From positions 47,918 to 111,917 of the forward strand of contig CAZNRN010000008.1 of the NCBI GenBank assembly GCA_964575605.1: DNA of 64,000 nt. Reading direction: 5' to 3'. This stretch comes from an uncultured Micavibrio sp. (GTDB taxonomy: Bacteria > Pseudomonadota > Alphaproteobacteria > Micavibrionales > UBA2020). The translations under genes were made by a program, and so were the position numbers. Below, one piece after another: positions 18,247 to 60,006 of the stretch. The notes under the pieces are model-generated. The model was not told the origin of the DNA. It did not search any database and was given only the letters and a program-made list of their open reading frames with translations. How positions within the stretch are numbered: the stretch's first letter is position 1; each line of letters starts with the position of its first letter.

Positions 18247-19980
<1,734 letters not shown>

Positions 19981-19995
19981 GGCCGGATTCAGGTG

Positions 19996-20025: not shown

Positions 20026-20030
20026 ATCCC

Positions 20031-20134: not shown

Positions 20135-20182
20135 CAGCGCGAAAGCCTTTACCGGCTTGTCTTTCGCAGGCTGTATTGTGTC

Positions 20183-20767: not shown

Positions 20768-20798
20768 AGTTTACTACTCCGTCCTTACACACGGAGCA

Positions 20799-20833
20799 GG
20801 CGGGAGCGACTGGACGCGCTCCCGCCTTTTTTT
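20799..20833 (+). terminator. Rho-independent terminator after mntP
   Basis: GGCGGGAGCG (20799-20808), an 8-nt loop, CGCTCCCGCC (20817-20826), then TTTTTTT (20827-20833). An A-run on the other side could let it also serve the convergent purM. Confidence 0.85.
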
Positions 20834-20834
20834 A

Positions 20835-21839: not shown

Positions 21840-21840
21840 C

Positions 21841-24193: not shown

Positions 24194-24194
24194 C

Positions 24195-30337: not shown

Positions 30338-31092
30338 GCTGCTTTCTCCTTGGAAACTTTTGCGGAAGCGCCGAGGCGCGCGACCGAGGCGACGGCGTTG
30401 CGCGTGTTGTTGCACCCGACCCAGAGGCCGCCCTTGTTCGCCCATTCTACCAGTTGCAGGTAGGATTCAGGTTTCTGCGCGTGCGATTTCGACATCAGCG
30501 GCACGTGCAGGCAAAGCTCACCCGGGTGGATATGGACGCTTTCGGCCACAAGGCGCACGTCAAACGCGCCGTCGGTCGAGGACATGTCCGTCAGCTTGAC
30601 CTCGATGCCTTTTTCTTTCGCCGCCGTGCGCGCCTTTTCAATTTCGGCGATGAGTTCGGCATCGGCCATGTATTCGGGCGAGGGCGCCACGAAATTGATG
30701 CGGGAATAATCGACGCGCGCGGTGCCGTATTGTTTCAGGAAGGCGGGGATTTCGGACGGTTTCTGCGGCCCTGCCGTCATCACCGGCACGCCGGGCGGCA
30801 TTTGCGCGATGGAGGCGAAACTGTCGAGCCCGCCGAATTGCGAGGGCACAGCGACGCCGAAGACGGGGATTTTGACCATGGCGGCAACCACACCGGGCAG
30901 CGCCGCGGCAAGGCCTGCGCCGGCCACAACCGCGTCGCCCTTCCATTCGTGCATTTTGGCGTGGAGTTTATCGAGGTCGCGGTGGGCGGAGATGGCTTCG
31001 TATTCCACTTCCGCGAATTTTTTGAGGCTTTCGACCAGCGGCAGCGCCGTCCCTTCGTCGGATTTGCTGCCGAACACTACGAATATCTTCAT
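30334..31092 (-). CDS. purE: atypical PurE-like protein (AIR carboxylase fold + ~120-aa C-terminal extension)
   Basis: VFGSKSDE, SAHRD, GAGLAAALPGVVAA, PVFGVAVP and QMPPGVPVMT match PurE blocks within the first ~125 aa. The remainder is not recognised. Confidence 0.7.
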   Translation of the reverse strand: MKIFVVFGSKSDEGTALPLVESLKKFAEVEYEAISAHRDLDKLHAKMHEWKGDAVVAGAGLAAALPGVVAAMVKIPVFGVAVPSQFGGLDSFASIAQMPPGVPVMTAGPQKPSEIPAFLKQYGTARVDYSRINFVAPSPEYMADAELIAEIEKARTAAKEKGIEVKLTDMSSTDGAFDVRLVAESVHIHPGELCLHVPLMSKSHAQKPESYLQLVEWANKGGLWVGCNNTRNAVASVARLGASAKVSKEKAA

Positions 31093-31133
31093 TACCGTCC
31101 CCCTCGTTAATTAAGAAAAAACTATGTCTAGGC

Positions 31134-40206: not shown

Positions 40207-41319
40207 ATGAACAAAGCGCTAAAGCCCCTGCTCCTCGTCGGCAACAACACGGCGCCGGAAACGCGCAAGGCGCTCGAGGAAAGTGGCCAGTTCGAGGTCA
40301 TCACCGCCAGCATCGGCAAATTTGTCAGCGGCGAGCCCTTTGCCGAGCTGCACAAGGGCGAGGAAAAAGTTTACGCCGACAACCTCGCGCGCCTGAAGGG
40401 CGCGAAGGTCTATGTGCTGCAATCGACGTCGGAGCCCGTGGCCGACAGCTTCCAGCACATGCTGCTCATGGCGCATACGCTGAAATATTTCGGCGCGGGC
40501 GACGTGACCGCCATCTGCCCCTTCGCGGCGGGCTTGAGGCAGGACCGCGCGTTCAAGGACCGCTTCACATCGGTCGCGGCCGTGCTGTTCGCGCAGCAGA
40601 TGAAGGCGTCGGGTATCGACGGGGTCATCACCATGACGCCCCATTCCAAGGGCGCGATTGCGGAATACACCAAGGTTTTCGGCGACCGCTTTATTCCGCT
40701 CGCCACCACCAAGATGTTCGCGGATGACATCAAAGCGCGCTTCGGTTGCGACCCGGACCAGCTCTGCATCGGCGCGCCCGACGGCGCGGACAAGGCGACT
40801 GACGAAGGGCAGACACGCGCCCGCGAGCTTGCCAGGGCCATCTTCGGCCGCGCGGACGACGACTGCATGTTCCGCATCTCGAAAACGCATACCGGCGTGA
40901 ACAATACAAAAATCACCGCCTTCGACGGCGATGTGGCGGGCAAGGATTGCGTAATCATCGACGACATGATCGACGGCGGTTCCACCATGAACAACGCTGC
41001 CGCCATGCTAAAGGCGCAGGGTGCCCGTTCCGTCACCTGCTACGCCACGCATGGCATCCTCACGAACAACGCGCTTGAAAAACTGCTGGAGGCCAAATAC
41101 GACGGCATGCACAATGCCATCGATAAAATCGTCATCACCGACAGTATCCCCGGCGCCGCCGAGAAACTGGCCGCACTGCTGGCGCAGCAGCCCAAGCTGG
41201 CCGGCCGCGTGGAAATTTTGTCGGTCGGCGATATGGCCGTGAAACAGGTGAAGAAAGACATGGCGCCCACCGCCGTCCGTCCCGCCGCACAGGGCCCGAA
41301 GGCCGCTTTCGGCCGTTAA
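40207..41319 (+). CDS. ribose-phosphate pyrophosphokinase-like protein (divergent Prs)
   Basis: PRPP-binding loop VIIDDMIDGGSTM and a two-domain PRTase layout. 370 aa. Divergently transcribed from pncB. Confidence 0.6.
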   Translation: MNKALKPLLLVGNNTAPETRKALEESGQFEVITASIGKFVSGEPFAELHKGEEKVYADNLARLKGAKVYVLQSTSEPVADSFQHMLLMAHTLKYFGAGDVTAICPFAAGLRQDRAFKDRFTSVAAVLFAQQMKASGIDGVITMTPHSKGAIAEYTKVFGDRFIPLATTKMFADDIKARFGCDPDQLCIGAPDGADKATDEGQTRARELARAIFGRADDDCMFRISKTHTGVNNTKITAFDGDVAGKDCVIIDDMIDGGSTMNNAAAMLKAQGARSVTCYATHGILTNNALEKLLEAKYDGMHNAIDKIVITDSIPGAAEKLAALLAQQPKLAGRVEILSVGDMAVKQVKKDMAPTAVRPAAQGPKAAFGR

Positions 41320-46915: not shown

Positions 46916-47836
46916 ATGCGCGCCATCGTCAAAAACAAAAATTCATTGGGTGTACAAAACATCCCCGCCCCGCTACTCACCGCTGACACCGACGTGATTA
47001 TCGAGGTGAAACTGGCGGGGCTTTGCCGCACCGACGTCTTCGTGGCGGAGGGGCGCATCCCCTGCAAGGAAACCCTTGTCCTCGGCCACGAATTTTCGGG
47101 CGTCGTGGTGCAGGCAGGCAGCGATGCCGATTTTTCCCAAGGCGACCGCGTGACGGCCATGCCCGTGCTGCCCTGTTTCGCCTGCGAGCGCTGCGACGCG
47201 GGCCGCGCCGACCAGTGCCAGAGAACCACCATGCTGGGCATCGACGTTGACGGCGCCTTTGCCGAGCGCGTGGCCGTGCCCGCGACCGCCGTCTACAAAA
47301 TTCCCGATACCATGTCCTACCGCCTTGCCGCCTATGCCGAGCCTGTGGCGGCCGCGCTGTCGGTGATGAAATCGGGCATCGAAAAATCGCAGCGCGGCGT
47401 GATTTACGGCAACAACCGCTTCAGCCACCTGATATTGCGCATCATGCGCGCCTATGATTTCAAAAACGTCACCATTCACGACCCGAAAACGGCGGTGCTG
47501 CAGGAATCGCGCTATGATTTTGCCGTTGAAACGCTGGCCGCCAATCAAACCATGAGCGAATTGATGACCGCCGTGAAACCCGGCGGCCGCATCGTGCTGA
47601 AAAGCCGCAAGCATGAACCCGTTGGAATTTGTTTTGCCGAGGCGGTGCGCAAGGAAATCACCTTCACCGCCGTCAACTATGGCGAATTCGGCGAGGCGAT
47701 CCGCTTGATGGCCGAGGGGTTGATTGCAGTGGATGATTTATTGGGCGAGGAATACGGCCTTGGCGATTACGCCACAGTGTTCGAGCGTTCAAAAACGCTG
47801 GAAACCCGCAAGGTTTTCTTCAACCCGGAGAAATAA
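46916..47836 (+). CDS. zinc-dependent MDR alcohol dehydrogenase-like protein
   Basis: GLCRTDVFV, GHEFSGVV and the Cys cluster CFACERCDAGRADQC (structural Zn). Confidence 0.8.
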   Translation: MRAIVKNKNSLGVQNIPAPLLTADTDVIIEVKLAGLCRTDVFVAEGRIPCKETLVLGHEFSGVVVQAGSDADFSQGDRVTAMPVLPCFACERCDAGRADQCQRTTMLGIDVDGAFAERVAVPATAVYKIPDTMSYRLAAYAEPVAAALSVMKSGIEKSQRGVIYGNNRFSHLILRIMRAYDFKNVTIHDPKTAVLQESRYDFAVETLAANQTMSELMTAVKPGGRIVLKSRKHEPVGICFAEAVRKEITFTAVNYGEFGEAIRLMAEGLIAVDDLLGEEYGLGDYATVFERSKTLETRKVFFNPEK

Positions 47837-47837
47837 C

Positions 47838-49751
47838 ATGTGCGGCATCACCGGCATCGTCTCGGCATCTCGCCCCGCAGGCATGGAACAGCTGAAACGC
47901 GGCACCGACGCGCTGGTCCACCGCGGCCCGGACGGCGAGGGTTTTTATATCGCCGCCAATAAAACGGCTGCCCTCGGCCACCGCCGCCTGTCGATCGTCG
48001 ACCTGTCGACCGGCAGCCAGCCGATTTCCAGCGAAGACGGCCGCAAGCACATCGTCGTTAACGGCGAATTCTACGGTCACGCCGACATCCGCCGCGGCCT
48101 TGAAGCACTCGGGCATGTTTTCAAGACAAAGTCCGACAGCGAGATTGCGCTGCACCTGTACGAGGAATACGGCACAGCCTGCCTCGAACACCTGCGCGGC
48201 GAATTCGCCTTTATCCTCTGGGACGAAGACAAGCAGATGCTGTTCGCCGCGCGCGACCGTTTTGGCATCAAGCCGCTGTGCTATACCCAATATAACGGCC
48301 AGTTACTGCTGGCATCCGAGGCGAAAGCCCTGTTTGCCATGGGCGCGCCCGCGGCCTGGGACGATTACAGCTTTTTCCACGCCGCCCAGCTGCAATACAC
48401 GCCGCAGGACCGCACGCTGTTTAAAAACATTTTCCAGCTGAAGCCCGGCCATGCGCTGGTGGCCAAGGGCGGCCGCACCGAAACCTTTAAATACTGGGAC
48501 CTTGATTTCCTGCCCGAAGCGCAAACCGATAAAGGCAGCGAAAAAGACCTCATCGACGCCTTCGCAGCGGAACTGGAACAATCCATCCGCCTGCGGCTGA
48601 TGGCCGATGTGCCGGTCTGTTTCCACCTGTCGGGCGGGCTGGACAGCGCAAGCGTGCTCGGCCTGGCCGCCAGCATCACGGGCAAGCAGCTGGATGCCTT
48701 CACCGTCAGCTTCGGGCATGAAGGCTACGACGAACTGCCCATCGCCGAAGAAATGGCCAAGACCCGCGGCGCGCGCCTGCACGCGGTCCACGTAACGCAA
48801 GAGGATTTAGTGCGCGAGCTGCCCGACGCTGTTTATTACGGCGAAGGCCTCGCCATCAACGGCCACCTGGCCGGCAAATACATGCTGAACCGCGCCATCC
48901 GCCGCGCCGGGTTCAAGGTTGCCTTGACGGGCGAAGGCTCTGACGAAATCCTCGCCGGCTATCCGCACCTGCGGCAGGACCTGCTGCGCGCGGAGGCGTC
49001 GAACGACGTCGCCGCCAAAGCCATGGCGAAAATCTACGCCACCAACGGCGCATCGGCCGGGGTACAAATCGCCCTTGGCGCCCAACTACCGACGCAGGCC
49101 GTGAAAGCGGCGCTGGGGTATACCCCCGCCTTCCTCGAGGCCAAGGCCTCGCTGGGTAGCCGCATGTCCGGCGTGCTCTCGGACGGTTTCGCCGCGCAAT
49201 TCACGCGCACCGACAGCTATGCCGAACTGATGGCGGCAACGCCTGTGGCCGAACAGCTGAAAGGCCGCCACCCCGTGAACCAGTCGTCGTGGATATGGGC
49301 GAAGACGGCGCTGGCCAATTACATCCTGCGCACGCTGGGCGACGGGATGGAGATGGCGCAGTCGGTCGAAGGCCGCCTGCCCTTCCTCGACCACAAGCTG
49401 TTCGAAACCGCGCGCCGCCTGCCGCTGGGCCTGAAAATAAAAGGCATGGTGGAAAAATACGTGCTGCGCGAAGCTGCAAAACCCCACATCACCGATACCA
49501 TCTACCGCCGCCAGAAACACCCCTTCATGGCGCCGCCCGTGACGTCGCATGCCAATGCCGCACTGATGGAACTGGTGGGCGATACGCTGCAATCGGCGAG
49601 CTTCGCCGCACTGCCTTTCTTCGACCGCAAGAAAGCGCTGGCAGCCCTGCACGGACTGCCCGCCATGGCAGCGCCGGAGCGCGCCGCGATGGAGCCCGTT
49701 CTGATGACGATGCTGACCGCTAACATGCTGCAACAGGAATTCGGATTATGA
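47838..49751 (+). CDS. asparagine synthetase B-like glutamine amidotransferase
   Basis: Start MCGITGIV (Ntn Cys2), HRGPDGEG and PP-loop HLSGGLDSA. The start was moved from 47724 to 47838, 1 nt after the upstream stop. Confidence 0.85.
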   Translation: MCGITGIVSASRPAGMEQLKRGTDALVHRGPDGEGFYIAANKTAALGHRRLSIVDLSTGSQPISSEDGRKHIVVNGEFYGHADIRRGLEALGHVFKTKSDSEIALHLYEEYGTACLEHLRGEFAFILWDEDKQMLFAARDRFGIKPLCYTQYNGQLLLASEAKALFAMGAPAAWDDYSFFHAAQLQYTPQDRTLFKNIFQLKPGHALVAKGGRTETFKYWDLDFLPEAQTDKGSEKDLIDAFAAELEQSIRLRLMADVPVCFHLSGGLDSASVLGLAASITGKQLDAFTVSFGHEGYDELPIAEEMAKTRGARLHAVHVTQEDLVRELPDAVYYGEGLAINGHLAGKYMLNRAIRRAGFKVALTGEGSDEILAGYPHLRQDLLRAEASNDVAAKAMAKIYATNGASAGVQIALGAQLPTQAVKAALGYTPAFLEAKASLGSRMSGVLSDGFAAQFTRTDSYAELMAATPVAEQLKGRHPVNQSSWIWAKTALANYILRTLGDGMEMAQSVEGRLPFLDHKLFETARRLPLGLKIKGMVEKYVLREAAKPHITDTIYRRQKHPFMAPPVTSHANAALMELVGDTLQSASFAALPFFDRKKALAALHGLPAMAAPERAAMEPVLMTMLTANMLQQEFGL

Positions 49752-50536
49752 CCCCCGACGCACAGGAAAGAACCAAAGCCAGCTGGTGCGAAGATTTCTT
49801 CGACGACCTTTTCGCCGAACACTGCCTTGCAACCCGCACGCCAGACGAGCTGCAGGCCATCACCACCTTCCTGCAGCGTGAGCTGAAACTTGGAACCGGC
49901 GACGCCGTTTTCGACCAGTGCTGCGGCATTGGCACGCTCAGCCTTGCGCTGGCGAAGCGGGGGTTGCGCACCTTTGGCGTCGACCTTATCCCTTCCTACA
50001 TCGACACGGCAAAAAACGCGGCGGTAAAGATGCAGGCCGCCTGCACTTTCGCTGCGGCCGACGCGGCTTTCTATTGCCCACCCGTGCCCTGCGACGCCGC
50101 TATCAACTGGTGGACCAGTTTCGGTTATTTCGAGGACGACGCCGAAAACCTGAAAATGCTGAAAGCCGCGCGCCGCAGCCTGAAGCCCGGCGCGTCCTTT
50201 GCGCTTGATTACATGAACACGCCCGAACGCCTTGCGCTGATGGGCGGCAGGCCCGTGACGTCATGGCGCGCGGAAAAACCCGGCTGCGTCGTCTCCTGCG
50301 ACACCCGCATCGACGGCCGCATGCTGGTCAAGGACTGGAAATACGAAGGCGCGGATAGCAGGAAGGTTGAAAAACGCGGCGGCGGCGTCAAGCTGTACAC
50401 GCAGCAGGAACTCGAAAGCCTGCTGGAGCAGGCCGGTTTCACCGCCGTCCGCTTCTATGGCAGTGTCAAGGGCGAGGCACTGGCCGTCAACAGCCCGCGC
50501 TGCATCGCCATCGCGCAAAACGGCAGTGCGCCATGA
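49748..50536 (+). CDS. class I SAM-dependent methyltransferase
   Basis: Motif I VFDQCCGIGTLSLALA, followed by GVDL and LKPGASF. ATGA overlap on both sides. Confidence 0.8.
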   Translation: MTPDAQERTKASWCEDFFDDLFAEHCLATRTPDELQAITTFLQRELKLGTGDAVFDQCCGIGTLSLALAKRGLRTFGVDLIPSYIDTAKNAAVKMQAACTFAAADAAFYCPPVPCDAAINWWTSFGYFEDDAENLKMLKAARRSLKPGASFALDYMNTPERLALMGGRPVTSWRAEKPGCVVSCDTRIDGRMLVKDWKYEGADSRKVEKRGGGVKLYTQQELESLLEQAGFTAVRFYGSVKGEALAVNSPRCIAIAQNGSAP

Positions 50537-51354
50537 TGCTGCCCTTTCCGCAGGCAGATAACGAAACTTTCCGCCGCGCGGTCTATGCGGGCGGCATCTT
50601 CCGCATACCCGCCACCACGCTTTCGGCGACGTTGGCGGCGGAAGTGATGGAGACGATGGCCGCGTATTTTGGCGCCCCCGGGACCGCGCATGAACGATAT
50701 ACATTTGCTGATATGCAGCCCGCCATGTCCGCTGCCCGCGCGGAGCTGGCGTCGCAACAGCGCTACCGCGATATCCAGTCGCAACTGCTGGCGGCTGCGG
50801 GTTTCACGCCTGATGAGCTTGCCGTCGACGCCTTGCGCCTGCGCTGCGTAATGAATAACGGCCACCTGAACAAGGGCGCGGAACTGGCCTATACCGCCCA
50901 CCGCGATACATGGTACGGCAACCCTCAGGCACAGCTGAATTTCTGGATGGCGCTGCATGACGTGACGCCGGCGCAAAGCTTTACCTTCTATCCCTCGCTC
51001 TTCACCCGACCGGTGGCGAATACATCGCAGGGTTTCAGCTATGCGACGTGGATGGAAAAACGCGGCTGGCAAGGCGCGAAAAGCGACGCGGCGGTGGAAT
51101 ACCCCGTCGTGCTGGAACAGCCGCAAGACACTGCCGCCTTTTCCTTCACGGCCAGTGCCGGCGATATGATCGTCTTTTCGGCCGCGCAACTCCACCAAAC
51201 CGTTAAAAATTCGAGCGGCATCACGCGTTACAGCCTCGATTTCCGCGCCGTGCACCTGGGCGACCACAAGGCAGGTTTGGGCGCGCCCAATGCCGACAAC
51301 GGCTCGCAGCCCGAGGCGCTGAAGGATTACTACACGCCGGGCAGGGCGGCATGA
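50533..51354 (+). CDS. PhyH-like Fe(II)/2-oxoglutarate oxygenase-like protein
   Basis: AHRDTWY (HxD), NFWMALHDV and AGDMIVFSAAQLHQTVKNSSGITRYSLDFR (distal His plus Arg) fit the PhyH/2OG oxygenase facial triad layout. Confidence 0.6.
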   Translation: MMLPFPQADNETFRRAVYAGGIFRIPATTLSATLAAEVMETMAAYFGAPGTAHERYTFADMQPAMSAARAELASQQRYRDIQSQLLAAAGFTPDELAVDALRLRCVMNNGHLNKGAELAYTAHRDTWYGNPQAQLNFWMALHDVTPAQSFTFYPSLFTRPVANTSQGFSYATWMEKRGWQGAKSDAAVEYPVVLEQPQDTAAFSFTASAGDMIVFSAAQLHQTVKNSSGITRYSLDFRAVHLGDHKAGLGAPNADNGSQPEALKDYYTPGRAA

Positions 51355-54300
51355 AAACGCTCTGGCAGCACATGGCGCCTTCCGCGGCCATCGCCATCCG
51401 CGACAATGGCCGCGAGATCAGCTATGCCGAAATGCTCGGCCGCGCCGCCGCGCTGGGTGAAAAGCTGAAGGCACAGGGCGTTACGTCCGAAACCCCGGTT
51501 GCGCTATCGCTGGAGAAATCGGCAGAATACATCATCGCGCTGCTGGCTGTCTGGCATGCGGGCGGGGCTTTTGTCCCGCTGCCGCCATCGCTGCCGGAGG
51601 AACGCCGCAAATTTATTATCGGCGACGCGGGCATCAGGCATTTCATTTCCCGTGAAGACGTAACGGCAGAGACAGCTTCTACCGCGCCTTTCGCTGCGCA
51701 AGCCGGTGCGCTTGCCTATATCATCTATACATCGGGCTCGACGGGCAGGCCCAAGGGCGTGATGGTCGAGCACCGCGGCTTGATGAACCTGTTTTCGGCG
51801 CAGGCGAAAGCTTTCGGCATGAAGGCCGGAAGCCGCTCGCTCTTCTGCCTCTCGGTCAATTTCGACGCTTCGGTGTCGGATATCGGCGTAGCGCTCTATG
51901 CCGGCGCGATGCTGGTGATTGATGGCAGCGACAGGCCCTTGCCGCAGGTGATGCGCACCCATGCCATCACCCATATCGACATGCCGCCCGCGCTGCTGAA
52001 ATCGATGCAGCCTGCCGATATGCCCGACAGCCTTGAAACCATCATTATCGGCGGCGAGGCCTGCCCGCCCGCGACGGTGCGCGACTTTGCCCGGAAATTC
52101 CGCGTCGTCAACGTCTATGGCCCGACCGAGGCGACCGTCTGCACCAGCCTGAATATCTGCGACGCCCAAACCTGGGACAAGCCCCTGATCGGCAACCCGC
52201 TGCCCGATGTCGAGTATGCCGTTATCGACGGTGAGCTGCAAATAGGCGGCGGCATGCTGGCGCGCGGGTATGTCAACCTGCCCGCGCTGACTGCCGAAAA
52301 ATTCATTACACGCGGCGGAAAGCGATTTTACCGCACGGGCGACAGCGTGCGCGAAACGCCGCAGGGGCTTGAATTCCTCGGCCGCATCGACCGCCAGTTC
52401 AAGCTGCGCGGCCAGTTGGTGGAACCGGACGAGGTCGAGGCACAGCTGCGCAGCCATCCGCAGGTGATGAAAGCGGCCGTTATCAAACGCGGCGAACAGC
52501 TGGTCGCCTTCGTCGCGCTGTCCGATAAATCCGCCAAAGCGGGTTTGGCGGACTGGCTGGCGGCACGCTTGCCCGCCTATATGGTGCCGCAGCATTTCGA
52601 GGTCGTTTCGCGCCTGCCATTGACGGTCACCGACAAAATCGATTATGCCGCACTGGCAACCCTGCCGCTGCAGACCGATCGCGCGCGCATCGTTCCCCGT
52701 ACCGAGACCGAAAAAAAGCTCTTCGCCATCTGGCAGGCCGTATTGAAACACGGCGATTTTGGCGTGACCGACGCCTTTTACGCCGCGGGCGGGGATTCGC
52801 TGGGCATTATACGCATGGCGATGGAATCCGAGCGGCAAGGGCTGCCGCTGTCTCCAGAGTTTATCGCGCGGCACATGACTATCGAGGCACAGGCCGCACA
52901 TATGGGGCAGAACGCCAGCGCACTTTCCGCCGCATGGCTGAAAGAAGACGTTGCTTTTTCGAAAGAAGACATTCAGTTGCTGGAAAAGGCTGCGCAGCGC
53001 CCCGCTACCCCTGCAAAACTTGAAAATATCCTGCTGACCGGCGCAACGGGTTTCCTCGGCTCGCGCGTATTGTGTGAATTGCTGGCGCAGACGAAGGCCA
53101 CCGTTTACTGCCTTGTGCGCGCACCCGATGCAGCCGGCGCGTTGCAGCGCATGATCGACGCGGCGGCGAAATTCGCCGTGCCCGCGACAGACTGGTCGCG
53201 CGTAGTGCCCGTCACCGGCGACCTGACGCAGCCATGCGGCGGACTGGACGCCGCCGCATGGCAAAGCCTTGCCGATAATATTGACGCCATTTACCACTGC
53301 GCCGCCTGCGTCAATATGGTGCTGCCCTATGCCGATATGCGGGCGGCGAATACGGGCGCGGCGCTCGAACTGCTGCGCCTTGCCGCTACGGGCAAACGCA
53401 AATCGCTGCATTACGCTTCGACCCTGTCGGTTTTCGTTGCGACGGACCAGAACACCGGCACATTGCTGGAAAGCGACCGCCTTGAAAACGTCACCACCGT
53501 TTACGGCGGCTATGCCCAGACGAAATTCGCAGCGGAATGGATGCTATTGCAGGCGCCGCATGAGGCCGTGCCTGTATCGCATTACAGGTTGGGATTGATT
53601 ACCGGCGATACAGTAACGGGCGCGGCTTCGGCCACCGATTTCCTCGCGCTGTTCTTCAAGGGCGCGCGCGAGCTGGGCGCTATGCCGGAAGAGGCGTTGA
53701 AAACCCTCTCGGTCGATATCACGCCGCTCGATTACGCCGCAAAAGCGCTGGTTTCCCTCTCCCTGGGCGGCAGGCCCGATGTTTACCACATCGCAGGCAA
53801 GGGCGTGACGCTGGAGCAGCTGGTGAAGCCGCTGAACCTGCGCGCCCTGCCGAAAACCCGCTGGCTGGAGATGATGCGCAACAAGCCGCTGGGCATGGAA
53901 GAAACCGCGGCCGCCCTGTCGCTCTGCCGCATCTTCGGCGACGCGGAATTTTCGCGCCACCGCACCATGGACCTGTTTCAGGCGACCAGCGTTATCTTTG
54001 ATACCCGCAATACAGATGCCGTCCTAGATTTCACCTGCCCGCCTGCGGATGAAAAACTGATTTCGCTTTATGCCGCGCAATCGCTGAAAGGCGCGCCGCG
54101 CGTGAAAATCTGCCTTTTCGGGCCGGAGTCGACGGGCAAGTCGACGCTGGCGGAAAAGCTGGCGGGGCATTACAAGGCGGCCTTCGTGCCCGAATACGCC
54201 AAGCAGCATATCGCGGCCAATGACGGCGATATCGGCTATGACGATATCCCGAAAATCGCGGCGGGACAGGCAAAGGCGGAATCGGCTGCGAAAACCGCAC

Positions 54301-54617
54301 CGCTGCTGTTCTGTGATACCGACCTGATCACCACCACGATCTGGAGCGACTGGCTGTTCCGCGACTGCCCGCAGTGGGTGCGTGACGCGGCCGAGGCCTC
54401 GCGCTATGACCTTTATTTGCTGATGGATGTCGATACGCCCTGGGTGGCCGATATCCACCGCTACCTGCCCGAAGACCGCGCGAATTTTCTCGCCCGCTGC
54501 GAAGACGAATTGCGCGCCCGCGGACTGCGGTATATAAAGCTGTCGGGCAGCTGGGACGATAAATTCAAAAACGCCTGCGCCGAAGTCGAGAAGGTCAGAG
54601 GAGAAAAACATGCTTGA
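51351..54617 (+). CDS. NRPS-like adenylation - PCP - thioester reductase fused to a NadR-type P-loop kinase (AAA_28-like) domain
   Basis: A domain: YIIYTSGSTGRPKGV, FDASVSD, YGPTE and YRTGD. PCP: GGDSLG (~52791). R domain: LLTGATGFLGSRV (~53031) and YAQTK. C-terminal ~175 aa: ICLFGPESTGKSTLAEKLA...FCDTDLITT...LLMDVDTPWVAD, which aligns by eye with the E. coli NadR ribosylnicotinamide kinase domain. Confidence 0.85.
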   Translation: MKTLWQHMAPSAAIAIRDNGREISYAEMLGRAAALGEKLKAQGVTSETPVALSLEKSAEYIIALLAVWHAGGAFVPLPPSLPEERRKFIIGDAGIRHFISREDVTAETASTAPFAAQAGALAYIIYTSGSTGRPKGVMVEHRGLMNLFSAQAKAFGMKAGSRSLFCLSVNFDASVSDIGVALYAGAMLVIDGSDRPLPQVMRTHAITHIDMPPALLKSMQPADMPDSLETIIIGGEACPPATVRDFARKFRVVNVYGPTEATVCTSLNICDAQTWDKPLIGNPLPDVEYAVIDGELQIGGGMLARGYVNLPALTAEKFITRGGKRFYRTGDSVRETPQGLEFLGRIDRQFKLRGQLVEPDEVEAQLRSHPQVMKAAVIKRGEQLVAFVALSDKSAKAGLADWLAARLPAYMVPQHFEVVSRLPLTVTDKIDYAALATLPLQTDRARIVPRTETEKKLFAIWQAVLKHGDFGVTDAFYAAGGDSLGIIRMAMESERQGLPLSPEFIARHMTIEAQAAHMGQNASALSAAWLKEDVAFSKEDIQLLEKAAQRPATPAKLENILLTGATGFLGSRVLCELLAQTKATVYCLVRAPDAAGALQRMIDAAAKFAVPATDWSRVVPVTGDLTQPCGGLDAAAWQSLADNIDAIYHCAACVNMVLPYADMRAANTGAALELLRLAATGKRKSLHYASTLSVFVATDQNTGTLLESDRLENVTTVYGGYAQTKFAAEWMLLQAPHEAVPVSHYRLGLITGDTVTGAASATDFLALFFKGARELGAMPEEALKTLSVDITPLDYAAKALVSLSLGGRPDVYHIAGKGVTLEQLVKPLNLRALPKTRWLEMMRNKPLGMEETAAALSLCRIFGDAEFSRHRTMDLFQATSVIFDTRNTDAVLDFTCPPADEKLISLYAAQSLKGAPRVKICLFGPESTGKSTLAEKLAGHYKAAFVPEYAKQHIAANDGDIGYDDIPKIAAGQAKAESAAKTAPLLFCDTDLITTTIWSDWLFRDCPQWVRDAAEASRYDLYLLMDVDTPWVADIHRYLPEDRANFLARCEDELRARGLRYIKLSGSWDDKFKNACAEVEKVRGEKHA

Positions 54618-55716
54618 ACGCACCGCCGAAATCGTCGAGGGCATCGAAAGCGAATTCGTGGGGCACGGCCTCGCCTTCGGCAAGTTCATGCCGCCCACCA
54701 ACGGGCATATCTACTTTCTCAACTTTGCCCGGAAATCATGCCGAAAGCTGACCATCCTCGTCTGCTCGCTGCCGACCGAACCCATCCCGGGTGAGCAGCG
54801 TTACAAATGGATCAAGGAGCTGTTCCCCGACTGCAACGTCGTGCACCATTACATCGACATCCCGCAGGAGCCCAAGGGCCCCGGCGACATCGCGTTTTTC
54901 GAGACATGGCGCGACAGTATCCACAAGCACTGCCCCGGCGAAACCTTCGACGCGCTTTTCGCGTCGGAATCCTACGGCTATAACGTCGCGAAAATCATGG
55001 ATATCAAATTCGTGCCCGTCGACGTCAAGCGCGACCTGGTGCAGATATCGGGCACCGCCATGCGTGACAACCCCTTGCAGCATTGGGAACACCTGCACCC
55101 CGTCGTGCGCCCCTATTTCCTGAAGCGCATCGCCGTGGTCGGCCCTGAATCGACCGGCAAATCGATGCTGGCGAAAAACCTGGCCGCGCATTTCGGCACG
55201 GTGCATGTCGGCGAATACGCCCGCGCCATGCTGACCGATTACGCGGCGAACATCCCGGGCTTCGATGTGTCCAAACCAACGCTGCGCGATTTTTCGACCA
55301 TTGCGCGCGGGCAGGTGGCGTCGGAGGAATCTTTATCCCGTCAAGCCAACCGTTTACTGGTCTGCGACACCGAGCTTGCCACCACCGCCTATTGGGCGCG
55401 GCATTTCTTTGGGCAATGCCCGCACTGGATCGAAAAAGCGGCTGAGGCGCGGAAATACGACCTTTACATGCTGCTCGACCCCCGCGGCATCGAAAAACAC
55501 TATGCCGATGACGCACTGCGCTTTATGCCGAAGCTGGAGGACCGTATTGCCATGTTCGACTGGTGGAAGGCGGAGCTGACCCGCCGCGGCCTGCCCTATG
55601 CCGTGATATCGGGCGATGACTGGCGCGCAAGGTTCCAGCAGGCCGTCGTCGCCGTCTACCAGAATATCCCCGGCATGATTTCGGCCGAAGGCGCAAGACT
55701 TGGCAGTGCCGCCTGA
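54610..55716 (+). CDS. NadR-family bifunctional NMN adenylyltransferase / ribosylnicotinamide kinase homolog lacking the HTH domain
   Basis: FGKFMPPTNGHIYFLNFA resembles E. coli NadR FGKFYPLHTGHIYLIQRA. ISGTAMRDNP is present. The kinase domain reads VVGPESTGKSMLAKNLA...VCDTELATT. 8-nt overlap (ATGCTTGA) with the upstream gene. Confidence 0.8.
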   Translation: MLERTAEIVEGIESEFVGHGLAFGKFMPPTNGHIYFLNFARKSCRKLTILVCSLPTEPIPGEQRYKWIKELFPDCNVVHHYIDIPQEPKGPGDIAFFETWRDSIHKHCPGETFDALFASESYGYNVAKIMDIKFVPVDVKRDLVQISGTAMRDNPLQHWEHLHPVVRPYFLKRIAVVGPESTGKSMLAKNLAAHFGTVHVGEYARAMLTDYAANIPGFDVSKPTLRDFSTIARGQVASEESLSRQANRLLVCDTELATTAYWARHFFGQCPHWIEKAAEARKYDLYMLLDPRGIEKHYADDALRFMPKLEDRIAMFDWWKAELTRRGLPYAVISGDDWRARFQQAVVAVYQNIPGMISAEGARLGSAA

Positions 55717-55733: not shown

Positions 55734-56234
55734 GTGGAGGTCCCCATGCGCCAGCGCCGTTCTGCCGGAAAATTCTTTTTTCAGCGATTGCTGATTATCG
55801 GCCTTATCATCGTCTTTGGCGCGCCTGCCGCGCTGAAGGAAATGGCGACGCTGAACCCGCTCGACCCCACGGGCCGCGTCGACAGCTATCGCGCCGCAGC
55901 CGCGCCGCGCCTGCCCGACAGCCGCCGCATCCATATCCTCTATGGCGACGACCACGGCGGCGGGCACCTGCATGGCGTGAACAGGCCCTGCAAATCCGAA
56001 TTTCCCGCCGACTGGAGCGAAAAAGACATCGTGGCCTCCGTCAAGGCAATCGCCGCCAACGACAACCTCGGCTGGCAGCGGCAGAAAAACGGGAATGTGG
56101 TGGCAGACACAGTCGACCATGGCGTGAAAATCCGCGTCGTGCTGAACAGCGACCTGACCGAAATCGTCACGGCCTATCCGCTGTCGACGCCGCGCAACGC
56201 CTGCCCGGCCGCCAACGACAACGAAAAAGATTAA
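55734..56234 (+). CDS. membrane-anchored/exported EndoU_bacteria-like nuclease-domain protein
   Basis: N-terminal hydrophobic helix FFFQRLLIIGLIIVFGAPAAL. Then HILYGDDHGGGHLHG...CKSEFPADWSEKDI...GVKIRVVLNSDLTEIVTAYPL, which matches my recollection of the bacterial EndoU toxin-domain profile. The alternative ATG start is at 55746. Confidence 0.65.
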   Translation: MEVPMRQRRSAGKFFFQRLLIIGLIIVFGAPAALKEMATLNPLDPTGRVDSYRAAAAPRLPDSRRIHILYGDDHGGGHLHGVNRPCKSEFPADWSEKDIVASVKAIAANDNLGWQRQKNGNVVADTVDHGVKIRVVLNSDLTEIVTAYPLSTPRNACPAANDNEKD

Positions 56235-57241
56235 ACTTCGTCCTTATAGGGATGCGTCACGCCGTTGAAGTCGGTGACGTCGTAACCGTCTCCGTTTTCT
56301 GCGATGCGGGCGGCGCCTGCCGGCACCTTGCCGTGGCCGCCCGGGATATCCAGCATATAATGCGGCTGAGCGATGCCCGACAGCCTGCCAAGCAGCGAAG
56401 ACACCAGCGCGCGCCCCTCTTTCAGCGTCACGCGGAAGTGCGAAGTACCCGGCGCCATATCGGGATGGTGCAGGTAATAGGGCTTTACCTTCATCGCCGT
56501 AAAGGCGCGGAACAGCTGTTCCAGCACGCCCGCGTCATTATTGACGCCCTTCAGCAACGTGGATTGAGATAATAACGGTATGCCCGCCGCGATAAATTTC
56601 TGCGCCGCCGCCTTGACCGTGTCGGTCAGTTCGCGCGGATGGTTGGCGTGGAAGACGACATAGACGGCTTTATCGGACGCCAGCGCCGCGACCAGTTCAT
56701 CGGTCACGCGCGAGGGGTCGGCCACCGGCACGCGCGTGTGGTAACGCACCACCTGCACATGCTGCATTTCGTTCAGCGCCACCATGATTTCCGACAGACG
56801 CCGCGGCGACAACACAAACGGGTCGCCGCCCGTGACAATCACTTCCCAGATGGTGGGCGTGTTGCGGATATAGGCCAGCGCCTTCTGCAATTCCTCGCGG
56901 CCCAGCATCTCGCTGCCCGGTCCCACTTTTTCGCGGCGGAAACAGAAGCGGCAATAGACGGCGCAGACATGCACGGGTTTCAGCAGCACGCGGTCCGGAT
57001 AGCGGTGCACGATGCCTTTGACGGGCGAATGCGCGTCGTCGCCGATAGGGTCGGCCAGTTCGCCGGGCGTTGTTTTCAGCTCTTCGGCCGAGGGCAGGTA
57101 TTGCTTCGCAATAGGGTCGGCGGGGTCAGTGGCGTCCACCAGCTCCATCACCTCGTCCGTCACGGCCACGGCATAGCGCTCCATCACCTCTGCGAGGGGA
57201 TCGTCGGGGGAGAGCGTTTTTGCTTGAGGTTTTGTTGCCAT
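56231..57241 (-). CDS. KamA-family radical SAM lysine 2,3-aminomutase-like protein (EpmB/YjeK-like)
   Basis: CAVYCRFCFRRE (CxxxCxxC), VIVTGGDP and YYLHHPD. 336 aa. Confidence 0.85.
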   Translation of the reverse strand: MATKPQAKTLSPDDPLAEVMERYAVAVTDEVMELVDATDPADPIAKQYLPSAEELKTTPGELADPIGDDAHSPVKGIVHRYPDRVLLKPVHVCAVYCRFCFRREKVGPGSEMLGREELQKALAYIRNTPTIWEVIVTGGDPFVLSPRRLSEIMVALNEMQHVQVVRYHTRVPVADPSRVTDELVAALASDKAVYVVFHANHPRELTDTVKAAAQKFIAAGIPLLSQSTLLKGVNNDAGVLEQLFRAFTAMKVKPYYLHHPDMAPGTSHFRVTLKEGRALVSSLLGRLSGIAQPHYMLDIPGGHGKVPAGAARIAENGDGYDVTDFNGVTHPYKDEV

Positions 57242-58647: not shown

Positions 58648-60006
58648 ATGACGACGACCGCACCGAAGAAAAAGAAGAACACCAAAGAACAGGAAGCCCC
58701 GACCGTGGGCATCGTGTCGCTCGGCTGCCCCAAGGCGCTGGTCGATACGGAGCGGATTCTGACGCAGCTGAGATCCGAAGGTTACCAGCTCTCCCCCGAT
58801 TACGCAGGCGCGGACATGGTGATCGTAAACACCTGCGGCTTCCTCGACAGCGCGAAGAAGGAATCGCTGGAGGCCATCGGCGAAGCGATGAGCGCCAACG
58901 GCAAGGTCATCGTGACGGGCTGCATGGGCGCCGAGCCCGAGCAGATTACCAAGGAATTTCCCAAGGTGCTGGCCGTGACCGGCCCGCAGCAGTACGAAGC
59001 CGTGGTCAGCGAAGTGCACAAGGTAGCACCCCCGCCGCACGACCCCTTCGTCGACCTCGTCCCGCCGCAGGGTATCAAGCTGACGCCCCGCCATTATGCG
59101 TATTTGAAGATTTCCGAGGGCTGCAACAACCGTTGCACCTTCTGCATTATCCCTAAGCTACGCGGCGACCTCGTCTCTCGCCCTGTTATTCAGGTGCTGG
59201 CGGAAGCCGAACGCCTTGTGAAGGCGGGCGTGAAGGAAATCCTTGTGATCTCGCAGGATACTTCCGCTTACGGCATCGATACCAAATACCAGGCCTATCC
59301 GTATAAAAACCGTACGGTGCGCACGAAGTTCATCGACCTGTGCAAGGAACTGGGCGAGCTGGGCGTCTGGGTGCGTTTGCACTACGTCTATCCCTATCCG
59401 CATGTGGACGAGGTTTTCGGGTTGATGAACGAGGGCAAGGTCCTGCCCTATATCGACATCCCCTTCCAGCATGCTTCGCCCGCGGTGCTGAAAAACATGC
59501 GCCGCCCCGCGCACCAGGAAAAAACGCTGGAGCGCATCAAAAGCTGGCGCAAGATGTGCCCCGACCTCACCATCCGATCGACCTTCATCGTCGGCTTCCC
59601 CGGCGAAACGGACGCGGATTTCGAATTGCTGCTGCAGTTCATGAAAGAGGCGGAGCTGGAGCGCGTCGGCTGCTTCAAATACGAACCGGTGACGGGCGCC
59701 GATTCAAACAAGATCGAGCCCCACGTCGCGCCCGAAGTGATGGAAGAACGCTACCACCGCTTTATGACGCTGCAGCAGGAAATTTCGGCCAAGAAACTCG
59801 CCGCGAAAATCGGCCGCACCCTGCCCGTGCTGATCGACAGCGTCGGCCAGGAAGGTGCGCTCGGCCGTTCATCCGCCGACGCCCCCGAGATTGACGGCAA
59901 CGTGAAAATCATGAGCAAAAACCTGAAACTCGCCCCCGGCGACCTCGTCAACGTCAAAATCACCGAAGCCGACGAATACGACCTGACCGGCAAGCTGGCG
60001 GTTTAA
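58648..60006 (+). CDS. rimO: ribosomal protein S12 methylthiotransferase
   Basis: [22 protein letters not shown], radical [11 protein letters not shown] and a C-terminal TRAM region. Confidence 0.9.

What the first reader, a model, noticed from the sequence alone, without database searches (positions are those of the whole stretch)
51351..54617. A-T-R (adenylation/PCP/thioester reductase) protein carrying a C-terminal ribosylnicotinamide-kinase-like P-loop domain
A-T-R proteins such as Lys2/CAR-like reductases normally end at the reductase domain. This 1088-aa ORF continues for about 175 aa (from ~54103): KICLFGPESTGKSTLAEKLAGHYKAAFVPEYAKQHI...LLFCDTDLITTTIWSDWLF...YDLYLLMDVDTPWVADIHRYLPED. 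This aligns by eye, block for block, with the kinase domain of E. coli NadR (ILGGESSGKSTL...FIDTDFVTTQAF...LENNTPWVADGLRSLG). A fused kinase implies that the reductively released product is phosphorylated in cis. The A4 region FDASVSD retains the Asp that usually contacts an alpha-amino group, which hints at an amino-acid substrate (inference).
Basis: partly seen in the sequence, partly recalled or inferred. Interest (0 to 1): 0.82.

Follow-up and report, generated by a model that had tools for sequence, protein, structure and literature searches.

The report
NRPS-like reductase fused to NadR-type kinase
A real, conserved gene fuses an amino-acid-activating reductase to a NadR-type kinase inside an undescribed six-gene operon found in many bacterial phyla, which most likely makes a phosphorylated, nucleotide-tagged small molecule that nobody has identified.

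Summary
Window 51351-54617 (+) is one uninterrupted 1088-aa ORF: adenylation, carrier, thioester-reductase and AAA_28 domains. The last domain is a NadR ribosylnicotinamide-kinase (RNK)-type P-loop kinase by HMM, by PDB sequence search and by predicted fold. It is not a frameshift artefact: 55 of the 120 best database relatives carry the same fusion.

The next gene (54610-55716) is a complete NadR-like protein: NMN-adenylyltransferase (NMNAT)-like domain plus a second AAA_28. The ORF sits in a tightly packed operon: Zn-dehydrogenase, AsnB-like amidotransferase, methyltransferase, PhyH-like dioxygenase, A-T-R-kinase, NadR-like. This cassette recurs in 31 of 80 species-representative loci across many phyla.

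Three architectures exist:
- A-T-R plus a separate NMNAT-RNK.
- A-T-R-RNK plus NMNAT-RNK (this window).
- A-T-R-NMNAT-RNK in one chain.

Where the kinase is fused, the downstream kinase domain has diverged or lost its P-loop, while the NMNAT motifs persist. So the fused domain is the pathway's working kinase.

Most likely mechanism (inferred): amino acid, reduced to aldehyde or alcohol, phosphorylated, then adenylylated. The substrate and product are unknown. I found no literature on it.

The parts
46916..47836 (+). Zn-dependent medium-chain dehydrogenase (ADH_N), first gene of the cassette
   Evidence: Pfam ADH_N 6e-26. Best NCBIfam and PDB relatives are polyol / threonine / galactitol-1-P dehydrogenases. 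Present in 24 of 31 cassette loci.
47838..49751 (+). AsnB-like glutamine-dependent amidotransferase. The true start is MCG..., residue 39 of the TTG ORF.
   Evidence: GATase_7 + Asn_synthase. TIGR01536 scores 437.7 bits against a cut-off of 267. Best PDB hits: 7ylz hydroxyamidotransferase 8e-53, E. coli AsnB 1e-47. Present in 26 of 31 loci.
49748..50536 (+). SAM-dependent methyltransferase (accessory member of the cassette)
   Evidence: Methyltransf_25/23/31. Present in 19 of 31 loci. Fused to NMNAT-RNK in P0137.
50533..51354 (+). PhyH-like Fe(II)/2-oxoglutarate dioxygenase (accessory member)
   Evidence: PhyH 8.7e-6. Family-invariant H123-R-D125, H221 and R232. Present in 20 of 31 loci. No significant PDB relative.
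51351..54617 (+). A-T-R-RNK fusion protein, 1088 aa (the finding)
51384..52637 (+). Adenylation domain (residues 12-429), specificity code DASAIGVVCK
   Evidence: Pfam. TIGR01733 scores 325.4 against a cut-off of 317.4. Code computed.
52716..52901 (+). Carrier (PCP) domain, GGDS with Ser483
   Evidence: PP-binding 8.5e-7. G480, D482 and S483 are invariant.
53025..54080 (+). Thioester reductase domain (residues 559-910). TGATGFLG Rossmann motif, Y721/K725.
   Evidence: TIGR01746 scores 235.5 against a cut-off of 213.35. Best PDB hit is the MxaA R domain 4u7w, 2.5e-49. Invariant residues.
54102..54614 (+). NadR-RNK-type P-loop kinase domain (residues 918-1088; Pfam AAA_28 919-1071)
54120..54146 (+). 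Walker A / P-loop GPESTGKST (residues 924-932)
   Evidence: G924-S931 invariant in 51 fused proteins.
54303..54323 (+). Walker B strand LLFCDTD (D989)
   Evidence: D989 invariant. Aligns with the NadR IDTD motif.
54432..54470 (+). LID-region motif DTPWVADIHRYLP (residues 1028-1040)
   Evidence: D1028, D1034, H1036, R1037 and P1040 invariant. Aligns with NadR NNTPWVADGLRSL. Lowest-confidence loop of the model.
54610..55716 (+). NadR-like protein, 368 aa. Its start overlaps the stop of the fusion gene by 8 nt.
   Evidence: TIGR01526 matches positions 3-325 of 325, 1.8e-62. Aligns full length to NadR 8x7f, 2.4e-27.
54664..55104 (+). NMNAT-like nucleotidyltransferase domain (GKFMPPTNGH, ISGTAMR)
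55126..55632 (+). Second AAA_28 domain (RNKd). P-loop intact, but it has an 8-aa insert and a replaced LID-region motif.
   Evidence: Pfam 2.2e-33. 40% identical to the fused domain. Alignment.

Best explanation
The ORF is a single-module NRPS-like reductase whose C-terminus carries the working kinase of a conserved, uncharacterised small-molecule pathway.

Shown:
- All catalytic motifs of the A, PCP, R and kinase domains are intact and conserved.
- The gene is translationally coupled into a six-gene operon.
- The same A-T-R is linked to a NadR-type NMNAT+RNK unit in every lineage, either as a neighbouring gene or as a fusion.

Inferred mechanism:
1. The A domain loads an alpha-amino acid with a long or large uncharged side chain. 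The code is DAS[A/S][I/V]GV[V/I]CK and the substrate is unknown.
2. The R domain releases it reductively as the amino aldehyde.
3. The R domain or the operon's Zn-dehydrogenase takes it to the amino alcohol.
4. The fused P-loop domain phosphorylates a hydroxyl of that product with ATP.
5. The downstream NMNAT-like enzyme joins AMP to the new phosphate, giving an ADP-linked (dinucleotide-like) product.
6. The AsnB-like enzyme converts a carboxylate into an amide. The methyltransferase and the dioxygenase are optional tailoring steps.

Fusing the kinase to the reductase would capture a reactive or diffusible intermediate. In lineages with the fusion, the original kinase domain of the NadR-like gene became redundant.
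For: Domain identity and intact motifs.

Operon: overlapping stop/start codons across 49748-55716; same gene order in relatives.

The cassette occurs in 31 of 80 species-representative loci, from Alphaproteobacteria/Micavibrio, Melainabacteria, Sericytochromatia, Myxococcota, Legionella, Planctomycetota, Verrucomicrobiota, Bacteroidota, Bdellovibrionota and Xenobia. No family other than the six is conserved.

Fusions that link the parts:
- A-T-R-NMNAT-RNK: P0073, P0081, P0145. The P0081 locus has no separate NadR-like gene.
- NMNAT-RNK-methyltransferase: P0137.
- Fused kinases fall in more than one part of the RNK tree.

Functional replacement:
- The fused domain keeps the motifs of the unfused-cassette kinases and is 45-53% identical to them.
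- The downstream kinase domain has lost its P-loop and Walker B, and is truncated, in L002, L009, L088 and L089.
- It is altered in the window, L001 and L008.
- The NMNAT motifs stay intact.

The A-domain code is the same in all three architectures.

Chemical precedent, from my own knowledge: in chloramphenicol biosynthesis CmlP (A-T-R) makes an amino alcohol whose primary hydroxyl is phosphorylated by a P-loop kinase. NMN, 4'-phosphopantetheine and phosphocholine are all phosphomonoesters that enzymes of this nucleotidyltransferase superfamily adenylylate or cytidylylate.
Against: - No acceptor substrate has been determined for any cassette kinase.
- The fused domain keeps most of the positions it shares with true NadR kinases (EY, G[QH], DTD..TT, PWV.D..R). 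That would also fit a riboside acceptor.
- NAD-salvage-type genes lie near the cassette: window NAPRTase-like, PRPP-synthetase-like and NadE-like genes; NAMPT in L001; a PncA-like gene and a tandem NadD in L006. A NadD-NadD-NMNAT-RNK fusion also exists.
- The Zn-dehydrogenase is closest to secondary-alcohol/polyol dehydrogenases rather than to aldehyde reductases.
- Whether the R domain does a 2- or a 4-electron reduction cannot be read from sequence.
- The role of the second, intact downstream kinase domain in this window is unexplained.
Confidence: 0.5

Rival explanations
1. The kinase and the NMNAT-like enzyme are still genuine nicotinamide-riboside kinase and NMN adenylyltransferase. The cassette is then an NAD-related pathway: making, modifying or recycling a pyridine nucleoside or nucleotide, or coupling NAD supply to the reductase. 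The fusion reflects that link rather than phosphorylation of the reduced amino acid.
For: - Homology to NadR over both domains.
- Shared motif positions with NadR in the kinase.
- NAD-salvage-type genes near the cassette in the window, in L001 (NAMPT), in L006 (isochorismatase/PncA-like plus tandem NadD) and in L027 (Prs-like).
- P0138 is a NadD-NadD-NMNAT-RNK fusion. In Melainabacteria the NMNAT motif is degenerate exactly where a NadD-like gene is adjacent.
Against: - Only 27-30% identity to characterised NadR kinases.
- Both the tail and the downstream protein score far below the NCBIfam NadR equivalog cut-offs (113.6 and 211.5 against 341).
- No phosphoribosyl- or glycosyl-transferase is conserved in the cassette.
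- Recurrent physical fusion to an amino-acid-type A-T-R, and to the cassette methyltransferase, is hard to explain by cofactor supply.
- The neighbouring NAD genes are not conserved across phyla.
Confidence: 0.25
2. The amino aldehyde made by A-T-R cyclises or condenses into an N-heterocycle. For example, an amide-bearing aldehyde could close to a pyridone- or pyrazine-like ring. A housekeeping enzyme then ribosylates it. The RNK and NMNAT domains turn that nucleoside into an NAD analogue.
For: - Amino aldehydes from A-T-R enzymes are known to cyclise to pyrazines and pyrazinones (PMC7586950, listed; also my own knowledge).
- The AsnB-like enzyme could supply a carboxamide as in nicotinamide.
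- The dehydrogenase could aromatise the ring.
- The NadR-type motifs are retained.
Against: - There is no ribosylating enzyme in the cassette.
- The reading is entirely inferential.
- The specificity code gives no hint of Asn, Gln or Asp.
Confidence: 0.12
3. The fused AAA_28 domain is not catalytic. It would act as an ATP/NAD-sensing regulatory or docking module, as has been proposed for part of enterobacterial NadR's role, controlling the reductase or recruiting the NadR-like partner.
For: - NadR's kinase domain has regulatory roles in enterobacteria (my own knowledge).
- The downstream kinase-like domains in L002, L009, L088 and L089 persist as P-loop-less remnants, which shows the fold can be kept without catalysis.
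Against: - The P-loop G924-S931, the Walker B D989 and the LID-region D1034/H1036/R1037 are invariant in 51 fused proteins.
- It is the downstream copy, not the fused one, that decays.
Confidence: 0.06
4. The fusion is an artefact: a frameshift, a mis-assembly, or two genes read as one.
For: None found.
Against: - One open frame with no stop.
- 55 of the 120 best relatives, from independent assemblies, have the same architecture and junction.
- Confident single-chain model: pLDDT 87.4 overall, and 76-91 in the 10-residue blocks around the junction.
Confidence: 0.01

Closest known systems
NadR (E. coli / Salmonella / H. influenzae / L. lactis): bifunctional NMN adenylyltransferase + ribosylnicotinamide kinase
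   Same: - The fused tail has the same fold and motifs as the NadR kinase domain: P-loop, Walker B DTD, PWV.D..R LID region. TMq 0.83 to 8x7f.
- The downstream gene reproduces the NMNAT-RNK two-domain layout.
   Different: - 27-30% identity, below the NadR equivalog cut-offs.
- No HTH domain.
- The kinase is attached to an NRPS-like A-T-R.
- It sits in a biosynthetic-looking cassette.
- The substrate is untested.
Single-module NRPS-like A-T-R reductases: Lys2 alpha-aminoadipate reductase, the MxcG terminal module, PvfC, ATRed, HqlA/LnaA, carboxylic acid reductases, fungal ATRR glycine-betaine reductase (A-T-R-R)
   Same: - A-T-R order.
- Asp235/Lys517.
- Ppant Ser.
- SDR-type R domain with Y-x3-K.
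   Different: - None of these is described with a C-terminal P-loop kinase.
- This protein scores far below the equivalog cut-offs of Lys2 (244 against 1030), CAR (174 against 1300) and MxcG (482 against 2300).
- Its specificity code matched nothing in the searchable literature.
Chloramphenicol pathway: CmlP (A-T-R giving an amino alcohol) plus chloramphenicol 3-O-phosphotransferase, a P-loop kinase (from my own knowledge)
   Same: The logic is the same: an NRPS reductase makes an amino alcohol, and a P-loop kinase phosphorylates its primary hydroxyl.
   Different: - There the two proteins are separate.
- The kinase belongs to a different P-loop family and serves self-resistance.
- No nucleotidyltransferase follows.
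Kinase + nucleotidyltransferase pairs that activate alcohols: choline kinase/CCT (LicA/LicC), PanK..PPAT/DPCK in CoA synthesis. Also nucleotide-tagged intermediates in FR-900098 and fosfomycin biosynthesis (FrbH, Fom1). All from my own knowledge.
   Same: - A hydroxyl is phosphorylated, and an HxGH-superfamily nucleotidyltransferase then joins the phosphate to a nucleotide.
- Tailoring enzymes may act on the tagged intermediate. Compare the NMNAT-RNK-methyltransferase fusion P0137.
   Different: - The enzyme families used for the kinase step differ.
- None of these is coupled to an NRPS-like reductase.

Membership tests
Pfam AAA_28 / NadR ribosylnicotinamide-kinase-type P-loop kinases | Profile match above the curated threshold over the whole domain | tested here: met
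   PF13521 scores 116.7 bits against a cut-off of 27, covering profile positions 1-164 of 164.
Pfam AAA_28 / NadR ribosylnicotinamide-kinase-type P-loop kinases | Walker A GxxxxGK[ST], Walker B hhhhD, and a LID-region Arg | tested here: met
   GPESTGKST, LLFCDTD and DTPWVADIHRY are present and invariant in 51 fused homologues.
Pfam AAA_28 / NadR ribosylnicotinamide-kinase-type P-loop kinases | Fold closest to the NadR kinase domain rather than to other P-loop kinases | tested here: met
   In the Foldseek PDB search the top three hits are NadR 8x7f, 1lw7 and 6gyf (TMq 0.76-0.83). Thymidylate kinases come next at about 0.5-0.7.
NadR proper (NCBIfam TIGR01526 / NF005988 equivalogs) | Score at or above the curated equivalog cut-off | tested here: not met
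   - Tail: 113.6 against 341.15, and 74.1 against 201. The TIGR01526 model spans both domains, so a lone kinase domain cannot reach its cut-off.
- Downstream two-domain protein: 211.5 against 341.15, and 118.8 against 201.
NadR proper (NCBIfam TIGR01526 / NF005988 equivalogs) | Phosphorylates nicotinamide riboside | not testable with these tools
   The NR-binding residues of the NadR kinase site are not defined in the structures described in PMC7221760. No residue-level test was possible.
NRPS-like A-T-R thioester reductases | Amino-acid adenylation domain with Asp235 and Lys517 | tested here: met
   TIGR01733 scores 325.4 against a cut-off of 317.4. D172 and K429 are invariant.
NRPS-like A-T-R thioester reductases | Carrier domain with the phosphopantetheine-attachment Ser | tested here: met
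   PP-binding 29.6 against a cut-off of 20.8. GGDS has S483 invariant.
NRPS-like A-T-R thioester reductases | Terminal SDR-type reductase: Rossmann TGxxGxxG and catalytic Y-x3-K | tested here: met
   TIGR01746 scores 235.5 against a cut-off of 213.35. T563/G564/G567, Y721 and K725 are invariant.
Lys2 / CAR / MxcG / AusA (named A-T-R enzymes) | Equivalog-level similarity | tested here: not met
   - Lys2 (TIGR03443): 244 against 1030.
- CAR: 174 against 1300.
- MxcG: 482 against 2300.
- AusA: 342 against 2500.
All.
Known anti-phage defence systems (PADLOC) | Any profile match | tested here: not met
   No hit for the fusion protein, the NadR-like protein, EndoU, the PhyH-like protein or the dehydrogenase.

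The most novel reading that the evidence does not exclude
The six-gene cassette makes a previously unknown ADP-linked amino-alcohol metabolite. This would be an acyclic, NAD-like 'dinucleotide': a cationic amine plus a carboxamide in place of ribosyl-nicotinamide. It could serve as a cofactor, a signal, or an NAD/aminoacyl-adenylate antimetabolite. It would be built by an NRPS-like reductase that hands its product directly to NadR-derived kinase and adenylyltransferase modules. On this reading, NadR-type enzymes have been recruited repeatedly from vitamin salvage into secondary metabolism.
Probability: 0.3. Interest if true: 0.85.

Novelty: new variant of a known kind. Interest (0 to 1): 0.68.

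Why it matters
NRPS-like A-T-R enzymes are widely mined, and their released aldehydes or alcohols are normally thought to leave the enzyme free. Here a kinase of the NadR family sits directly on the reductase. NadR-family kinases are known only from NAD salvage. In sister lineages a whole kinase-adenylyltransferase unit is fused to the reductase.

That defines a compact operon of four to six genes, spread across many phyla including predatory and host-associated bacteria. Its product is unknown, and none of my literature searches found it described.

The work gives a directly testable hypothesis: reduce, phosphorylate, adenylylate. It gives a clear example of domain duplication and fusion followed by decay of the original copy. 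It also cautions that 'NadR/NMNAT' annotations in such genomes may not mean NAD salvage.

Tried and rejected
- Frameshift or artefact: rejected.
- An unrelated P-loop family for the tail: rejected.
- Defence-system membership: no PADLOC hits.
- Horizontal-transfer island by composition: GC is flat at about 0.58-0.63 over 36-64 kb.
- Promoter and terminator scans: no more sites than in shuffled sequence. The operon is defined by gene overlaps only.
- Literature: eight searches found nothing relevant. Terms tried were NadR / RNK / NMNAT with NRPS / thioester reductase, 'NRPS-like' with nicotinamide riboside kinase, kinase / amino alcohol / nucleotidyltransferase combinations, and the Stachelhaus strings. 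The term 'AAA_28' only matched unrelated accession-like strings.
- Residue-level test of NR binding: not possible. The L. lactis NadR paper reports no ligand in the canonical kinase site.
- Substrate hints from accessory enzymes:
  - The PhyH-like family profile has no significant PDB relative. The weak CytC3 (0.42) and PtlH (0.96) hits are not usable.
  - The methyltransferase's best PDB hit is an unnamed 'putative methyltransferase'.
  - The AsnB-like enzyme is about equally close to a hydroxyamidotransferase and to AsnB.
- Extra conserved neighbours (transferase, transporter, PRTase): none across 31 loci.
- The afdb50 fold library was unavailable.

Full report
**Observation.** Window 51351-54617 (+) is a single ATG-initiated ORF of 1088 codons with no internal stop.

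Pfam places these domains:
- AMP-binding, residues 12-307
- AMP-binding_C, 361-429
- PP-binding, 456-517
- NAD_binding_4, 562-799
- AAA_28, 919-1071 (E 1.5e-33)

NCBIfam agrees. The amino-acid adenylation domain (TIGR01733) and the thioester-reductase domain (TIGR01746) both score above their curated cut-offs. The last 170 residues match only the kinase half (positions 165-325) of the NadR model TIGR01526.

Against PDB sequences, the tail's only full-domain hits are NadR proteins (8x7f 3e-15, 1lw7 6e-9). Every other P-loop protein matches just the ~35-residue P-loop stretch.

An AlphaFold model of the tail (pLDDT 90.5, pTM 0.85) finds NadR 8x7f, 1lw7 and 6gyf as its three best structural matches. 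TMq is 0.83 and rmsd 1.9 Å for 8x7f. Thymidylate kinases follow at lower TM-scores. The full-length model is confident throughout, including across the R-kinase junction (pLDDT 87.4).

**The fusion is real.** 55 of the 120 best 90%-identity clusters found with the protein have the same A-T-R-AAA_28 composition, at 45-79% identity. Those that carry a source name are alphaproteobacterial metagenome-assembled genomes. In an alignment of 51 of them, the following are invariant:
- the P-loop (G924-S931)
- the Walker-B Asp (D989)
- the LID-region residues D1028, D1034, H1036, R1037
- the carrier Ser483
- the reductase Rossmann motif and Y721/K725
- the A-domain Asp235 and Lys517 equivalents (D172, K429)

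A frameshift or assembly artefact is excluded. The kinase domain is under the kind of constraint expected of an active enzyme.

The gene overlaps its neighbours on both sides. The run 46916-55716 reads as follows:

| Coordinates | Product |
|---|---|
| 46916-47836 | Zn-dependent dehydrogenase |
| 47838-49751 | AsnB-like glutamine amidotransferase (starts MCG...) |
| 49748-50536 | SAM methyltransferase |
| 50533-51354 | PhyH-like Fe/2OG dioxygenase |
| 51351-54617 | the A-T-R-kinase |
| 54610-55716 | 368-aa NadR-like protein |

The 368-aa protein aligns end to end with NadR. It has an NMNAT-like nucleotidyltransferase domain (GKFMPPTNGH, ISGTAMR) followed by a second AAA_28 domain. This second domain is 40% identical to the fused one.

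**The same cassette elsewhere.** It appears around relatives in other assemblies. It also appears in 31 of the 80 best species-representative genome loci returned by a pattern scan. Taxa include:
- Alphaproteobacteria and Micavibrio
- Obscuribacterales / Melainabacteria
- Sericytochromatia
- Archangium, Labilithrix, Polyangiaceae
- Legionella
- Xenobia
- Paludibacteraceae
- Rhodopirellula, Pirellulales, Planctomycetaceae
- Prosthecobacter
- Bdellovibrionota

Clustering all ORFs of these loci shows that only the six families are conserved. No glycosyl-, phosphoribosyl- or other transferase and no transporter travels with them. The methyltransferase (19 of 31 loci) and the dioxygenase (20 of 31) are accessory. 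The core is the dehydrogenase, the amidotransferase, A-T-R and NMNAT-RNK.

**Three architectures and what they imply.**
- (i) A-T-R of about 920-980 aa followed by, or preceded by, a separate NMNAT-RNK gene. Examples are L004, L007 (Micavibrio) and L006 (Obscuribacterales).
- (ii) A-T-R-RNK plus a separate NMNAT-RNK. Examples are the window, L001, L002, L008, L009, L088 and L089.
- (iii) A-T-R-NMNAT-RNK in one chain. Examples are P0073 (1290 aa), P0081 (1369 aa) and P0145 (1307 aa). The P0081 locus then lacks a separate NadR-like gene.

There is also an NMNAT-RNK-methyltransferase fusion, P0137.

In a neighbour-joining tree of kinase domains, the cassette kinases form a group well separated from enterobacterial and Haemophilus NadR (27-30% identity). 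The fused domains of the window's clade nest among unfused cassette kinases (45-53% identity). Other fused proteins (P0053, P0054, P0133) fall elsewhere, which suggests more than one fusion event (NJ only, so tentative).

The fused domain keeps the cassette kinase motifs: GPESTGKST, PEYA, CDTD, TTxIWS, YDLYLLxD and DxPWVxDxHRYLP. The downstream kinase domain of type (ii) genomes does not. In L002, L009, L088 and L089 it has lost the P-loop and Walker B and is truncated.

In the window, L001 and L008 the downstream domain keeps the P-loop. But it carries an 8-residue insert and a replaced LID-region motif. In L008 the gene is split into two ORFs.

Throughout, the NMNAT motifs of that gene stay intact.

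The simplest reading has three parts:
- The pathway needs one kinase and one nucleotidyltransferase working with the reductase.
- In the window's lineage the kinase was duplicated onto the reductase.
- The original copy then became free to decay or change.

In the window's own subclade the downstream kinase-like domain is still well conserved. It is 75% identical to L001's, against 65.5% for the fused domain. So it probably retains some function, which I cannot name.

**Substrate.** I anchored the Stachelhaus positions on the A4 and A5 motifs and read them from the alignment. The code is DASAIGVVCK for the window, and DAS[A/S][I/V]GV[V/I]CK for 19 of the 21 fused, unfused and triple-fused members checked. 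The other two, P0081 and P0084, differ at one position each. All architectures therefore very probably use the same substrate.

Asp235 and Lys517 argue for an alpha-amino acid. The pocket has no charged residue.

From memory, the code is nearest the Lys code (DAESIGSVCK) without its acidic residue, and the Tyr code (DASTVAAVCK). The best curated NCBIfam hit is the Lys-activating MxcG module. My guess is a long or bulky uncharged side chain. This is inference only. The code strings occur in no searchable paper.

The AsnB-like enzyme is about equally close to a natural-product hydroxyamidotransferase (7ylz) and to E. coli AsnB. The dioxygenase has an H-x-D...H...R signature but no informative structural relative. 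The dehydrogenase is nearest polyol/threonine dehydrogenases.

**Mechanism.** I commit to the following, at about 50% confidence:
1. The A domain loads the amino acid on the carrier.
2. The R domain releases it as aldehyde, or alcohol.
3. The Zn-dehydrogenase may complete the reduction.
4. The fused kinase phosphorylates the new hydroxyl.
5. The NMNAT-like enzyme adenylylates the phosphate to give an ADP-linked product.
6. The amidotransferase, methyltransferase and dioxygenase tailor it.

What is shown: the domain identities, the intact catalytic motifs, operon coupling, cassette conservation, the fusions, and decay of the redundant copy. What is inferred: the order of reactions and the identity of every substrate.

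Precedents, all from my own knowledge:
- Chloramphenicol: CmlP (A-T-R) gives an amino alcohol, and a P-loop 3-O-phosphotransferase acts on it.
- The kinase + HxGH-nucleotidyltransferase logic of CDP-choline, CoA and NAD synthesis.
- The nucleotide-tagged intermediates of FR-900098 and fosfomycin biosynthesis.

**Main rival (about 25%).** The kinase and the NMNAT-like enzyme still act on nicotinamide-riboside-like nucleosides, and the cassette is NAD-related.

For it:
- Most motif positions shared with true NadR are kept.
- The window has a NAPRTase-like gene, a PRPP-synthetase-like gene and a very long NadE-like gene 7-18 kb upstream.
- L001 has NAMPT nearby.
- In Melainabacteria the cassette sits next to a PncA-like gene and a tandem NadD. 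The cassette's own NMNAT motif is degenerate there, and a NadD-NadD-NMNAT-RNK fusion exists.

Against it:
- Identity to NadR is low and scores are below the equivalog cut-offs.
- No ribosylating enzyme is conserved, and no NAD gene is conserved with the cassette across phyla.
- Cofactor supply does not explain repeated physical fusion to an amino-acid-type reductase and to the methyltransferase.

A hybrid idea is that the aldehyde becomes a heterocycle that is ribosylated and turned into an NAD analogue. I rate it about 12%. A purely regulatory pseudokinase is unlikely given the invariant catalytic residues.

**Novelty and score.** Every domain belongs to a known family, so this is not categorically new. 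But an NRPS-like reductase carrying a NadR-type kinase, its triple-fused relatives, and the cassette as a whole were absent from every literature search I could run. No curated NCBIfam equivalog covers them either. I class it as a new variant of a known kind, with interest 0.68. Its chemistry is unresolved.

Noticed in passing
window 38143-40071 (-), 40207-41319 (+), 33412-36948 (-): There is a divergent pair: a 641-aa NAPRTase_N-like phosphoribosyltransferase and a PRPP-synthetase-like protein. There is also an unusually long (1177 aa) ORF with CN_hydrolase + NAD_synthase domains, where typical glutamine-dependent NadE proteins are about half that length. These NAD-salvage-type genes lie 7-18 kb upstream of the cassette.
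   Followed up: partly
window 55734-56234 (+); also L001 17773-18261, L002 14385-14897, L009, L088 12323-12805: A small bacterial EndoU-nuclease-domain protein sits just downstream of the cassette in the alphaproteobacterial relatives (directly after the NadR-like gene in the window, L002, L009 and L088; about 3 kb further on in L001), but not in other phyla. No PADLOC hit. Its role is unknown.
   Followed up: partly
window 56231-57241 (-) and 58648-60006 (+): A KamA-family radical-SAM protein (TIGR03822 'lysine-2,3-aminomutase-like', 1e-145) and RimO lie next to the cassette. They are syntenic in L001 and L002. This is possibly relevant if the A-domain substrate is Lys-like, but they are absent from cassettes in other phyla.
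   Followed up: no
L002 13375-14355, L009 ~13219-14250, L088 11342-12289, L089 11318-12190: In these fused-type genomes the downstream NadR-like proteins keep the NMNAT motifs. Their kinase halves have lost the P-loop (e.g. RVALQGGDAATRAAL) and Walker B, and are truncated. They are pseudokinase remnants.
   Followed up: yes
L008 9723-10229 and 10233-10800: In this alphaproteobacterial MAG the downstream NadR-like gene is split into separate NMNAT (169 aa) and kinase-like (189 aa) ORFs. This could be a frameshift, a sequencing error or a genuine split.
   Followed up: no
L006 2021-5475; L012 ~16322-17374; protein P0138: In Melainabacteria the cassette's NMNAT-like HxGH motif is degenerate (QNSH, TNAH, HVGD). 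A tandem NadD-NadD protein is adjacent, or fused as NadD-NadD-NMNAT'-RNK (789 aa). L006 also has a PncA-like isochorismatase next to it.
   Followed up: partly
proteins P0197, P0241, P0135: Other fusions of this kinase family exist: RNK-aldose-1-epimerase (484 aa), RNK-CTP_transf in reversed order (408 aa), and a Se/S-carrier-like domain upstream of an NMNAT-RNK (401 aa).
   Followed up: no
window 9376-13389 (+): A 1337-aa ORF has a CitMHS/ArsB-type permease domain only in residues ~75-466. The remaining ~870 residues have no Pfam match.
   Followed up: no
window 14915-32624: This stretch is a dense block of purine/GMP genes: guaA, guaB, purH, purL, purD, a SAICAR synthetase with a long N-terminal extension (427 aa), and a purF-like gene.
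   Followed up: no
window 51504-53411 (-) and similar: Long antisense ORFs (e.g. 635 aa) lie inside the A-T-R gene. Their counterparts recur in relatives only as shadows of the coding strand. This is typical of ~60% GC DNA, and they are not genes.
   Followed up: yes
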